Of a DNA stretch of 64,000 nt, positions 663 to 58,410 are shown piece by piece. The translations under genes and the position numbers were made by a program. The notes beneath the pieces were generated by a model. It worked only from the letters and a program-made list of their open reading frames with translations. It ran no database searches and was not told the DNA's origin. Numbering within the stretch: the first letter of the stretch is position 1; the number at the start of each line of letters is the position of its first letter. This stretch comes from the human T2T-CHM13v2.0 reference genome, Homo sapiens: the NCBI RefSeq assembly GCF_009914755.1, contig NC_060933.1; one strand, written 5' to 3'.

Positions 663-723
663 TCTTATTACGGATTTAAGTTGCATTTCACATAGAGGTC
701 TTTTATATTAAAAAAAAAATGCT

Positions 724-1094
<371 letters not shown>

Positions 1095-1957
1095 TTAATG
1101 AGATTTAAATGGTGAAGTTTACCTTAATTGTATATGTATCCCTAATATCTGGCATTGTGCATTGCTCTTAGTATATGCTTGAAAAATCTATATTAATTTA
1201 ATAAAATAAATCCAGCAAAAGAAAATTACTCATCATTAAACTACAAATACTATGGAGTAAGATGAAGTCTTTAGCATCAAAAAGCTTTCAGTAAGATATT
1301 GACTGGAATATGTTTAATGACGATGCAAATTATTTCACATTTTGAACATTTACTATGTGAAAGTCATGATGAAAGCATTATAATAATTCATTAATCATCT
1401 AATACTAACAACTCTCCTACCATATCTCACCATCATACACTTAAGGGAACTGAAGTCTCAAAAAGCTAAACTGCCCAAGACTTTTTGGCCCCTTAACAGC
1501 AGAGCCAATCTAAGTCCAAAGAACTAGATTAGAATTAAGCTGTACCATGTAACAGCTCTGTGAACCAGTATGATAACCTTCATCTTGTTAAATCTCAAGA
1601 TTTCATCTAGAGTAATAAGGAAAATAATAGTTTTTATGTTCCTATTAGTGTTAAATGTGATTTAATGGATTTAATTAATATTAGTTTTTTCCTTTATGTC
1701 TTACAGTAGCTTAGAGAAAATGAAGATTAGTAAGATTATCCCTTTCTTAAACATTTCATTTTCTTACTTTTTTCCTCTGACTTTCTTATTTAGTCTTCTG
1801 GGACCACTGGTCCATAAGGCACCAAATTCTGGCTGGTTAGTAAAGGAGAATGGAAAGAAATCTGTTATTGTTAAGCCGATATTGATCCCTTGACTTCACT
1901 AGATGATCTAGAAGTAACTTATTGGCCCTTGATGCCTATTATTTTGAATCACAGAAT

Positions 1958-2790
1958 TTGTGCTTAAGTAGGGAGAACATCTTGAAAATATGAAGTTGCC
2001 ATTGAAAAAGCACAGTAGTCATCCTTAGCTGCAGGTCTGGAGTGGTCATATGGGCCAGTTTGGTATAGTGCTTAAGAGTATGAACTCTTGAATAAGATAA
2101 ATATGCACTCCTAAATCAGCATTACTATTTCCATATCTAGAAAATTGGAATTAAAAGCAACCATCTAAATAAAAATATTTTTATCTATGTGCATATTTAT
2201 TCCACAAATATTAATTGAGTTCTTTTCTAGGAAATTAACACAAAGCAATGAACAAAGTAGTCAAAAATCGCTATGGTCAGAAAACAAAAAAAAATGAAGT
2301 TCATAAGCCAACCTATTGTTGGTTGATAGATATAGTGGTAGTCTTATAGAAATTCTTTCCTGATTGTGGCATAGAGTAAATATTTGAAGGAACTCTAATA
2401 GGCGGGATAATTGATATTGAGCTTCTGTAATAAACAACTAAACTTAAGAACTTCATTTTTTTCTTTTCTGACCATAGTGATTTTTGACTACTTTGTTCAT
2501 TGCTTTGTGTTAATTTGCTAGAAAAGAACTCAGTTAATATTTGTGGAATAAATATGCACATAGATAAAAATATTTTTATTTAGATGGTTGCTTTTAATTC
2601 CAATTTTCTAGATATGGAAATAGTAATGCTGATTTAGGAGTGCATATTTATCTTATTCAAGAGTTCATACTCTTAAGCACTATACCAAACTGGCCCATAT
2701 GACCACTCCAGACCTGCAGCTAAGGATGACTACTGTGCTTTTTCAATGGCAACTTTATATTTTCAAGATGTTCTCCCTACTTAAGCACAA
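1958..2790. repeat. Long inverted repeat: arms 1958-2307 and 2443-2790, 135-bp spacer
   Basis: Hand alignment of left arm against reverse complement of right arm gives 6 substitutions and one 2-nt indel over ~350 bp; 1993-2214 pairs perfectly with 2534-2755. Confidence 0.98.
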
Positions 2791-3192
2791 GTAATTAACA
2801 ACTAACGTAGCTTAAACCAGCAAAAGAAAAAAAGAACTTTATTTCTTGCCCACAACACATTCCAGTATGTCAGGTTAGTATGGGAGCTTGTGGGAGGAGA
2901 CTCTGATTTATAACATCATTCAAGAACCAAGTCTGACAGAAGAACCTATAATCCTCAATCGTTTTAGTGCATGACAACAGGGATCGACCTGATTATTTCT
3001 ATCCAAAAAGTGTTTGGGAAATAAGACAGAACAGAAGATCATGCAGGATATTTTATGGGCAGGCCTGGGTGGATCAGTGTTCAGTCACATTCCCCCAAAT
3101 AACTACAGGTAAAGTCGGAAAATGTAGCTTTGCTGTGTGCCTAAAAAGAAAATAAAACGGATTTGGTAAACTCATAGCATTGTCTATATTAC
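2400..3192 (-). mobile_element. MLT1J/K-like MaLR LTR interrupted by the right arm of the inverted repeat
   Basis: 'gcttctgtaataaacaactaa' before the arm and 'gtagcttaaaccagc...ctttatttcttgcccaca...gaaaatgtagctttgctgtgtgcc...ggtaaactcatagcattgtctatattaca' after it are consecutive MLT1-type motifs. Confidence 0.6.
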
Positions 3193-12320: not shown

Positions 12321-12381
12321 TGTGTGCCTAATTCGCAAGGGATCTTTTCTGTGTGCCTAATTCACAGGGATCTTTTCTGTG
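12321..12381 (+). repeat. Tandem duplication, 29/28-bp unit x2
   Basis: tgtgtgcctaattcgcaagggatcttttc + tgtgtgcctaattcacagggatcttttc + tgtg. Confidence 0.92.
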
Positions 12382-26765: not shown

Positions 26766-28862
26766 GGTTTTCTTTTCTTTCTTTTTTTTTTTCTTTGCAG
26801 CTATTGTAAAAGAGGTTGAGTTCTTGATTTGATTCTCCACTTGGTCGCTGTTGGTGTATAAGAGAGCTACTGTTGTGTACATTAATTTTGTATCTGGAAA
26901 CTTTGCTGAATTCTTTTATCAGTTCTAGGAGCTTTCTGGGTGTGTCCTTAGGGTTTTCAAGGTAAACGGTTACATCATCAGCAAACAGTGACCATTTTGA
27001 ATTCCTCTTTACAAATTTGGATGCGCTTTATCTCTTTCTCTTGAGTGATTGCTATGGCTATGACTTCCAGTACTATGTTGAAGAGGAGTGGTGAGATTGG
27101 GCGTCCTTGTCTTGTTCCAGTTCTCAAAGGGAAATAATACTTAGGAATATACCTAACCAAGGACTCAAAAGACCTCTACAAGGAAAATTACAAAACACTG
27201 CTGATGGAAATCACAGATGACACAAACAAATGGAAACATCCCATGCTCATGAATGGGTAGAATTAATATTGTGAAAATGACCCTACTGCCAAAAGCAATC
27301 CAAAAATTTGATGCAATTCCCATCAAAATACCACCCTCATTCTTAATTAGAAAAAACAATACTAAAATTCATATAGAACCAAAAAAGAGACTGCATAGCC
27401 AAAGCAAGACTAAGCAAAAAGAACAAATCTGGAGGCATCACACTACCTGATTTCAAACTATACTATAAGGCCATAGTCACCAAAACAGTGTGGTACTGAT
27501 ACAAAAATAGGTATACAGATCAATGGAACAGAATAGAGAACCCAGAAATAAACACAAATACTTACAGTCAACTGATCTTCAACAAAACAAACAAAAACAT
27601 AAAGTGGGGAAAGAGTACCCTTTTCAACAAATGGTGCTGGGATAATTGGCTAGCCACATATAGGAGAATGAAACTGGATCCTCATCTTTCATCTTATACA
27701 AAAATCAACTCAAGATGGATTAAGGACTTAAACCTAAGACCTGAAACTATAAAAATTCTAGAAGATAACATTGGAAAAACTCTTCTCAACATTGGCTTAG
27801 GCAAGGATTTCATGACCAAGAACCCCAAAGCAAATGCAATAAAAACAAAGATAAATAGCTGTGACCTAATTAAACCAAAGAGCTTTTGCATGGCAAAAGG
27901 AACAGTTAGCAGACTAAACAGACAACCCACTGAGGGGGAGAAAATCTTCACAATCTATACATCTGACAAAGTACTAATATCCAGAATCTATAATGAACTC
28001 AAACAAATCAGTAAGAAAAAAGCAAACAGTCTCATCAAAATGTGGGCTAAGGACATGAATAGACAATTCTCAAAAGAAAATATACAAATGGCCAACAAAC
28101 CTAAGAAAAAATGGCCACCATCACTAATGATCAGGGAAATGTAAATCAAAACTACAATGAGATACCATCTCACTCCTGCAAGAACGGTCATAATCAAAAA
28201 ACAGTAGATGTTAGCATGGATGCAGTGGACAAGGAACACTTTTATGCTGCTGGTGGGAATGTAAAGTAGTACAGCTACTATGGAAAACGGTGTGGAGATT
28301 ATTTGAAGAACTAAAAATAGAACCACCATTTGATCCAGCAATCCCACTACTGGGTATCTACTCAGAGGAAAAGAAGTCATTATTTGAAAAAGATACTTGC
28401 ACACACGTTTATAGCAGCACAATTCACAATTGTAAAATCATGGAACCAACCAAACGTCTATCAATCAACGTGTGGATAAAGAAACTGTGGTGTATATATA
28501 CAATAGATTACTACACAACCATAAAAATGAATGAACTAACAGCATTTGCAGTGACGTAGATGAGATTGTAGACTATTATTCTAAGTGAAGTAACTCAGGA
28601 ATGGAAAACCAAAATATTGTGTGTTCTCACTGATATGTGAGAGCTAAATTATGAGGACGTGAAGGCATAAGAATGATGCAATGGACTTTGGGGACTTGGA
28701 GGGAAAGAGTGGGAGAGGGCGAGGGATAGAAGACTACAAATATGGTGCAGGGTATACTGCTCAGGTGATGGGTGCACCAAAATCTCACAAGTCACCACTA
28801 AAGGACTTACTCATGTAACCAAATACCACCTGTACCCCAATAACTTATGGAAAATAAATAAA
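26766..28862 (+). mobile_element. L1PB-type, 5'-truncated with 5' inversion (inverted ~26766-27132, sense ~27133-28862)
   Basis: Minus-strand ORF2 peptide '[22 protein letters not shown]' joined to plus-strand '[15 protein letters not shown]' and '[20 protein letters not shown]'; PB-type 3'UTR ending 'taacttatggaaaataaataaa'. Confidence 0.9.
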
Positions 28863-43236: not shown

Positions 43237-43653
43237 TGTATAAGGAACTTATACAAATTTACAAGAAAAAAACCTATTTAAAAGCAGGCAAAGGACATGA
43301 ACAGACACTTTTCAAAAGAAGACATATTGCAGCCAGCAATCATATTAAAAAAAGCTCGACATCACTGATCATTAGAGAAATGCAAACATCACTGATCATT
43401 AGAGAAATGCAAATCAAACCACAATGAGTTACCATCTCACAGAAATCAGAATGGCTATTATAAAAAAGTCAAAAAATAACAGATGCTGGCGAGGTAGGAG
43501 GGAGAGAATCAGGAAAAATAACTAATGAGTACTAGGCTTAATAGCTGGGTAATGAAATAATCCGTATAACCAACCTCCCTGACACAAGTAGATCTATGTA
43601 ACAAATCTGCACTTGTATCCTTGAACTTAAAATAAAAGTTAAAAAAAAAAAAA
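43237..43653 (+). mobile_element. Older L1PA (about PA13-16) 3' fragment with internal deletion and 27-bp tandem duplication
   Basis: ORF2 C-terminal motifs ('aaggacatgaacagacacttttcaaaagaagacata') fused at ~43495 to distal 3'UTR 'aggagggagagaatcaggaaaaataactaatgagtactaggcttaat' plus poly(A). Confidence 0.85.

Positions 43654-57148: not shown

Positions 57149-58410
<1,262 letters not shown>

What the first reader, a model, noticed from the sequence alone, without database searches (positions are those of the whole stretch)
1958..2790. Uneven divergence along the arms suggests arm-to-arm gene conversion
Seen: the outer 257 bp have one mismatch (222 bp perfect), while the 93 bp next to the spacer have 5 substitutions and a 2-nt indel, and the 15-bp flanking duplication has one mismatch. 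One duplication event should leave evenly spread differences. Inference: the event is older than the outer stem implies, and the outer stem has been homogenised by conversion or hairpin-templated repair, as is established for much larger Y-chromosome palindromes. Error-prone synthesis just after the switch is an alternative.
Basis: partly seen in the sequence, partly recalled or inferred. Interest (0 to 1): 0.7.

Follow-up and report, generated by a model that had tools for sequence, protein, structure and literature searches.

The report
Small inverted duplication, human chromosome 9
A 350-base stretch of human chromosome 9 sits beside a mirror-image copy of itself, likely made in one copying slip millions of years ago; the few differences between the copies bunch at the inner end, likely mostly through chance and mutation-prone spots, though one later gene-conversion event is nearly as likely, and the structure is an ordinary kind of rearrangement.

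Summary
The counts are exact. The arms are 1958-2307 and 2443-2790, with a 135-bp spacer. There is one mismatch in the outer 257 bp (222 bp perfect), 5 substitutions plus a 2-nt indel in the inner 93 bp, and 1 mismatch in the 15-bp flanking duplication. The right arm is the inserted copy of a local inverted duplication, a known class.

The skew is only mildly unusual. Nominal P is 0.007-0.017, and 20 of 747 matched windows of a distant 98% duplicate pair look as skewed. One inner 'substitution' is likely junction sequence, one is a CpG transition and two events share a poly-A run; without the junction base and poly-A events P is 0.08.

Bayes factors for a conversion tract are 1.3-13 and shrink with hot-spot weighting. 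At the average human non-allelic conversion rate, conversion erased differences in 18 of 44 accepted simulations. Near-Y-palindrome rates fit 0-1 of 60,000 runs.

Odds: chance plus hot spots 0.45, a sporadic conversion or fold-back tract 0.38, error-prone synthesis 0.15. Primate orthologues, not available here, would decide.

The parts
1958..2307 (+). Left arm, the donor (inferred original) copy, 350 bp
   Evidence: no flanking direct repeat around it
2308..2441 (.). Spacer (with 2442, 135 bp between the arms); ends in the first copy of the 15-bp direct repeat; single copy in the genome
2427..2441 (+). First copy of the 15-bp target duplication
   Evidence: (family D2)
2442..2448 (+). 7-nt inner junction (ACTTAAG). 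It matches the reverse complement of 1963-1969 at the donor's outer end and contains the extra base 2442 and the 'mismatch' at 2447; likely a short templated junction insert
   Evidence: P about 0.004 per 20-nt stretch, noticed after the fact
2443..2790 (-). Right arm, the inserted inverted copy, 348 bp
   Evidence: bracketed by the 15-bp direct repeat
2791..2805 (+). Second copy of the 15-bp target duplication, one mismatch
1993..2214 (+). 222-bp perfect core (pairs with 2534-2755); the candidate converted tract
2215..2307 (+). Inner 93 bp holding 5 substitutions and a 2-nt indel (pairs with 2443-2533)
2206..2256 (+). Fragment of an old dispersed repeat inside the arm (L2-like; the name is recalled, not tested)
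   Evidence: 14 other genomic matches, 0 for the reversed control
1951..1956 (-). 6-nt microhomology (TTCTGT on the minus strand) just beyond the donor's outer end; it matches 2423-2428 at the start of the target duplication
   Evidence: P 0.04 for 6 exact, 0.011 for 8 of 9

Best explanation
This is a 350-bp inverted repeat with a 135-bp spacer, likely made in one template-switch or break-repair event that copied the neighbouring 350 bp backwards and re-copied 15 bp of the target, and its uneven differences are most likely chance plus mutation-prone sites rather than later homogenisation. Shown: the arms, the target duplication, single-locus copy number and the position of every difference. 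Inferred: synthesis stopped at 2441, switched to the opposite strand (perhaps after a 7-nt false start at the donor's outer end), copied 2307 back to 1958, and returned 15 nt behind the departure point (switch order 3-2-4-1), helped by a short microhomology. The mirror direction on the other strand cannot be excluded. Also inferred: the arms then diverged neutrally by about 1.5-2%, roughly great-ape age.
For: The target duplication brackets only the right arm and abuts its outer end, so all 349 bp arrived at once. There is microhomology at the outer junction and a templated-looking 7-mer at the inner one. Of 7 events, one is junctional, one is a CpG transition at the arm's only CpG, and two lie in its longest poly-A run. 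What is left is 2 inner versus 1 outer ordinary substitution, P 0.18. A duplicate pair 80 Mb apart gives a comparable skew in 20 of 747 windows with 6-7 events and 53 of 1386 with 5-8. With hot spots weighted and the junction site dropped, Bayes factors against uniform divergence fall to 1.3-2.2 for a generic tract and 0.7-1.1 for error-prone synthesis.
Against: Every unweighted test leans away from uniform: P 0.007-0.04 for gap size and 0.002-0.017 for an inner-end cluster. A recent-tract model keeps Bayes factors of 2.7-13 and a fold-back model 1.7-8. Dropping sites after seeing them is itself post hoc. At the average human conversion rate, conversion erased differences in 18 of 44 (weighted) and 8 of 15 (flat) accepted runs; at ten times that rate, in 62 of 70 and 22 of 28. 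The duplicate pair used as null may itself have been converted, which would inflate the null.
Confidence: 0.45

Rival explanations
1. Same origin but older (arm divergence 2.5-5%), with the outer stem reset once or a few times by non-allelic gene conversion or by fold-back template switching. In fold-back correction the already-copied inner part would prime and keep its mismatches while the outer part is rewritten from the other arm.
For: Perfect 222-bp core with differences at both edges. Mean human tract about 250 bp and rate 2.5e-7 per site per generation (bioRxiv 10.1101/135152, passages). Bayes factors 1.3-4.4 for a generic tract, 1.7-8.2 for fold-back and 2.7-12.9 for a recent tract. Simulated fit is 1.3-1.4 times better at the average rate and 2.1-2.5 times at ten times that rate. 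Inner part plus target duplication: 6 substitutions in about 106 sites.
Against: Small counts. The signal shrinks each time a hot-spot site is weighted. No cross-species or haplotype data. Continual Y-like conversion fits 0-1 of 60,000 runs. The arms are shorter than the smallest repeats (654 bp) behind the recurrent inversions in PMC6748972 (passages). PMC5453318 found template switches to be mostly inter-strand, not fold-back (section 6).
Confidence: 0.38
2. Error-prone synthesis at the origin: a low-fidelity polymerase made the first 90 or so bases after the switch, so the inner differences are as old as the insertion and lie in the inserted arm.
For: The inner end is where synthesis would start if it ran on the plus strand (inference). 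The junction 7-mer suggests more than one switch. At the one site that old repeat copies can polarise (274), the left-arm base G is in 9 of 14 paralogues and the right-arm base C in 1 of 14, so the inserted arm is likely derived. Unweighted Bayes factors are 3.5-19.
Against: Weighted Bayes factors drop to 0.7-2.2. Site 258 is uninformative (T 8 of 14, C 6 of 14) and 313 is not resolved by paralogues. A CpG transition points to later deamination. The direction of synthesis is unknown. The paper I recall on error-prone junction synthesis (Carvalho 2013) was not held.
Confidence: 0.15
3. Assembly or polishing artefact that homogenised the arm cores, or stepwise growth of a small old inverted repeat.
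For: Near-perfect palindromes can confuse read mapping (general knowledge, not tested here).
Against: The whole repeat spans 833 bp, well inside long reads (recalled for this assembly). The intact target duplication abutting the outer end argues against a second, extending event.
Confidence: 0.02

Closest known systems
Local inverted duplications ('Inverted Dup') of the 1000 Genomes SV map (PMC4617611; passages); 'non-tandem duplication, opposite strand' in PMC5829575 (passages)
   Same: Under 1 kb copied, inserted within 5 kb in inverted orientation, no sign of retrotransposition. That paper reports this as 54% of its sequenced 'inversions'.
   Different: Those were polymorphic; this one carries 6-7 differences and is probably older and fixed (not tested).
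'4 before 1' template-switch events of the four-point model (PMC7954356, passages; not seen in PMC5453318, section 6)
   Same: A reverse-complement local template, return behind the departure point, a direct repeat, and the look of one large insertion.
   Different: The copied piece is 349 bp against a median of 12 and a maximum of 128 in that gold-standard set; the ancestral state is inferred from the target duplication, not from an outgroup.
Arm-to-arm conversion in Y palindromes such as P6 (PMC3723533, passages)
   Same: Inverted arms with a spacer; many residual differences near arm boundaries.
   Different: Arms are 350 bp and 98% alike, not over 99.9%; the locus is autosomal. Rates of that order (2.9-8.4e-5 per variant per generation there) would erase nearly all differences here.
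Ordinary non-allelic gene conversion between human duplicates (bioRxiv 10.1101/135152, passages)
   Same: The tract length (mean 250 bp) matches the 222-bp core; the rate makes one event plausible.
   Different: Estimated on gene duplicates, not on a 135-bp-spaced inverted pair; not demonstrated here.

Membership tests
Local inverted duplication (inv-dup) | Duplicated stretch under 1 kb, inverted, within 5 kb of its source | tested here: met
   350 bp, 135 bp apart
Local inverted duplication (inv-dup) | Source is local and unique, not a mobile family | tested here: met
   2 matches in the genome, both at this locus (that search skips very common words)
Local inverted duplication (inv-dup) | An allele or species without the insertion exists | not testable with these tools
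   No primate or other human genomes are held; not found in the supplements searched, with the limits given in the full report
'4 before 1' template switch | Direct repeat from a return point behind the departure point | tested here: met
   15-bp repeat at both ends of the insert, chance 1.5e-4
'4 before 1' template switch | Short copied fragment (up to 128 nt in the published gold-standard set) | tested here: not met
   349 nt; it works like one but is larger
'4 before 1' template switch | Microhomology at the switch points (general knowledge of such events) | tested here: inconclusive
   Outer: 6 nt, P 0.04, but offset by 5 nt from the observed join; inner: 5 nt, P 0.24
Y/X-type palindrome under concerted evolution | Long arms over 99% identical | tested here: not met
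   350 bp, 98%
Y/X-type palindrome under concerted evolution | Continual conversion at about 1e-5 to 1e-4 per site per generation | tested here: not met
   0 and 1 of 60,000 simulations fit at 2.5e-5, ages 1-40 My assumed
Y/X-type palindrome under concerted evolution | Arms closer to each other within a species than to their orthologues | not testable with these tools
   No primate sequence available
Sporadic non-allelic gene conversion | A tract of identity longer than local divergence allows | tested here: inconclusive
   P 0.007-0.18 by event set; 13 of 747 in the empirical null
L1-mediated (TPRT) insertion or inverted-repeat transposon | Poly-A tail at the insert end, endonuclease site (TTTT/AA, recalled) or many dispersed copies | tested here: not met
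   No tail at either junction, the T-run is inherited from the donor, and the target duplication has no A- or T-run edge; two copies only

The most novel reading that the evidence does not exclude
The duplication dates to the ape or catarrhine ancestor, and its outer stem has been re-homogenised repeatedly and independently in several lineages. The cause would be fold-back correction or a loop-size limit that spares the 90 bp nearest the spacer. A tiny non-genic autosomal inverted repeat would then record a distance-from-loop gradient of concerted evolution that could be tested across all small inverted duplications.
Probability: 0.12. Interest if true: 0.5.

Novelty: new member of a known kind. 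Interest (0 to 1): 0.2.

Why it matters
As it stands it matters little: one more small inverted duplication in gene-free DNA. No gene is annotated in the window (hub table); there is no Rfam match at gathering score and only three ORFs of 40-82 codons nearby. It is a clean specimen of a '4 before 1' templated insertion with readable junctions. If recurrent homogenisation were shown, short inverted repeats would be poor clocks. They would also give a genome-wide natural assay of how spacer length and distance from the loop shape conversion and fold-back repair in the primate germ line.

Tried and rejected
Mobile-element origin of the arms: rejected, two copies only.

L1-type insertion: rejected, no tail and no endonuclease-like edge.

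Stepwise extension of a 93-bp old repeat: rejected because the target duplication abuts the outer end.

Continual Y-like conversion: rejected by simulation.

Polarising the differences with local paralogues: nhmmer over the window and two more loci gave no non-self hit below E 0.1. A genome-wide pattern gave 14 paralogues that inform only site 274.

Showing that the insert interrupts an old repeat: spacer and right flank each matched only themselves, so this is not shown.

RNA gene: the best Rfam hit, MIR8643, scored 35.8 bits against a gathering score of 135 and merely reflects the hairpin.

A class-level test on other short-spacer duplications: none other of 40 bp or more at 90% or more in the window apart from simple repeats, and the genome could not be scanned for them.

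Looking the locus up in print: no hit in the supplement searches; one search had nothing readable. Several key tables were not held.

Full report
Observation. The arms 1958-2307 and 2443-2790 align over 350 columns with six substitutions (arm positions 35, 258, 274, 313, 330, 346 from the outer end) and one 2-nt indel; positions 36-257 are identical. The single strand folds at -399.7 kcal/mol, z = -69 against 20 shuffles. The arm has only these two matches in the window's genome; spacer and right flank match only themselves.

Anatomy and origin. A 15-bp direct repeat, 2427-2441 and 2791-2805 (14 of 15 identical, 364 bp apart), brackets the right arm exactly; such a pair arises by chance at 1.5e-4 with 121 offsets allowed. 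So the right arm is the inserted copy and all 349 bp (2442-2790) arrived together. In the four-point notation the order is 3-2-4-1. PMC5453318 did not see '4 before 1' types (passages and section 6). PMC7954356 found many, each leaving a direct repeat and looking like one insertion, though its gold-standard copied pieces reach only 128 nt (passages). By size and spacing the locus fits the inverted duplications of PMC4617611: under 1 kb, within 5 kb, 54% of sequenced 'inversions', not tied to retrotransposition (passages). It also fits the opposite-strand local duplications of PMC5829575 (21 of 166 rearrangements, passages).

Junctions. A 6-nt microhomology lies near the outer join (P 0.04; 8 of 9 matching, P 0.011) but 5 nt off the observed join; the inner one is unremarkable (5 nt, P 0.24). 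The first seven inserted bases, 2442-2448, equal the reverse complement of 1963-1969 at the donor's other end (P about 0.004 per 20-nt stretch; noticed after the fact; the 7-mer also occurs at 1439). That would account for both the extra base at 2442 and the 'substitution' at 2447, so site 346 is likely junction sequence, not divergence.

Is the skew more than chance? Under a uniform null the largest gap reaches 222 with P 0.007 (7 events), 0.017 (6), 0.034 (junction site dropped, poly-A changes merged), 0.08 (poly-A dropped) and 0.18 (CpG dropped too). A halves test gives 0.125-0.22. Site 313 is the arm's only CpG and the indel and C/G change lie in its longest A-run.

Empirical null. I aligned 100 kb of 9p with its paralogue 80 Mb away. 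I kept 19 alignments of at least 1 kb and 95% identity (87,374 columns) and dropped windows with indels over 10 nt, leaving 2,999 overlapping 350-column windows. Of 747 with 6-7 events, 13 have a gap of 222 or more, 13 have all but one event within 93 of an end, and 20 meet either test. Of 1,386 with 5-8 events, 53 meet either. Without overlap the counts are 0 and 1 of 44, and 2 and 4 of 93. So the pattern is about 1 in 30-60: suggestive, and picked out after the fact. That pair may itself have seen conversion, which would make the null too generous.

Model comparison. Bayes factors against uniform divergence, from unweighted down to weighted (CpG x10, poly-A x3, my assumptions) with the junction dropped: generic tract 4.4 to 1.3; fold-back tract 8.2 to 1.7; recent tract 12.9 to 2.7; error-prone synthesis 18.7 to 0.7.

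Forward simulation used mutation 1.2e-8, tract 250 bp and the rate 2.5e-7 from bioRxiv 10.1101/135152 (passages), with ages 1-40 My and 60,000 runs per cell. Accepted runs, weighted: 33, 44, 70 and 1 at conversion rates 0, 2.5e-7, 2.5e-6 and 2.5e-5; unweighted: 11, 15, 28 and 0. Conversion had erased differences in 18 of 44 and 8 of 15 accepted runs at the average rate, and 62 of 70 and 22 of 28 at ten times it (small counts). Y palindrome P6 converts at 2.9-8.4e-5 per variant per generation (PMC3723533, passages), a regime these data nearly exclude. One sporadic tract is plausible; Y-like upkeep is not.

Polarity. A degenerate pattern from the inner arm found 14 other genomic copies of an old repeat (0 for the reversed control; L2-like by recall). 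At site 274, 9 of 14 carry the left-arm base and 1 of 14 the right-arm base (3 A, 1 T). At 258 they split 8 to 6, and 313 is unresolved. One site pointing to the inserted arm is compatible with every model.

Age. Whole-arm divergence is 6 of 348, 1.7% (0.6-3.8%); inner 5 of 91, 5.5% (1.8-12.8%); outer 1 of 257, 0.4% (0.01-2.2%). With recalled human-ape and human-macaque divergences (1.2, 1.6, 3.1, 6.5%), a perfect 222-bp run has P 0.07, 0.03, 0.001 and 5e-7. Presence or absence in orangutan, gibbon and macaque therefore decides the question.

Verdict on mechanism. Origin by one local template switch or templated break repair is about 0.9 likely. For the skew I integrate the above with my own priors: chance plus hot spots and a junction base 0.45, sporadic conversion or fold-back correction 0.38, error-prone first synthesis 0.15, artefact 0.02.

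In print. To look the locus up I placed it at about hg38 chr9:117,884-117,885 kb from the TLR4 exon 3 frame and a recalled SNP position; hg19 and hg18 offsets are recalled too, and drift of some kb is possible. Coordinate-prefix searches found nothing for this locus in supplements of:
- PMC12350169 (one file cut, one unreadable; the single hit was an unrelated chr15 row)
- PMC4617611 (1 file)
- PMC10150506 (3 files, T2T prefixes)
- PMC6467913 (3 files)
- PMC6748972 (files 13-18 of 18 not searched, and even 'chr9' was not found, so weak)
- PMC7954356 (6 files)

PMC12058530 had nothing readable. Three SV catalogues I wanted were not held, and their tables or other unseen supplements may list it. 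Ten text searches were by topic and listed no paper on this locus. This is not evidence that it is undescribed.

Also read as passages: PMC13629690, PMC8755829, PMC1803023 (small inverted repeats maintained in Caenorhabditis), PMC6748972 and PMC10150506. PMC8604942 was seen only as a search listing with the start of its abstract.

Score. A new member of a known kind, with an honest but unresolved hint of conversion: interest 0.2.

Noticed in passing
window 2308-2325: A small hairpin (5-bp stems, 5-7 nt loop) sits right at the donor's inner boundary and might have helped the switch; it appears in the fold.
   Followed up: no
window 2400-2441 and 2806-3000: The sequence on both sides of the insert looks like one old LTR-type repeat fragment (MLT1-like, recalled). 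Searches found no paralogue, so this is untested.
   Followed up: partly
window 2060-2090: Short stretch resembling the head of a MIR element (recalled, not tested).
   Followed up: no
window 2166-2187 and 2561-2582: A short internal palindrome inside the perfect core shows up as a direct repeat between the arms (D5).
   Followed up: no
window 710-724 and 1005-1019: Exact 15-bp direct repeat flanking the masked repeat at about 720-1012, an intact target duplication of an Alu-like insertion (D14; family name recalled).
   Followed up: no
window 43359-43413 and 12321-12381: Short tandem duplications: a perfect 27-bp pair and a 28-bp pair at 93%.
   Followed up: no
window 27669-28404 and 57615-58358: Long inverted pair at 71-77% identity, 29 kb apart, within masked repeats; likely two old copies of one interspersed family.
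   Followed up: no
L007-L016 versus L018-L027: Differences between the 9p and 9q paralogues are clumped: variance 13.9 against mean 5.4 per 350 columns, and 47 gaps of 222 or more against 31 expected among 1,443.
   Followed up: partly
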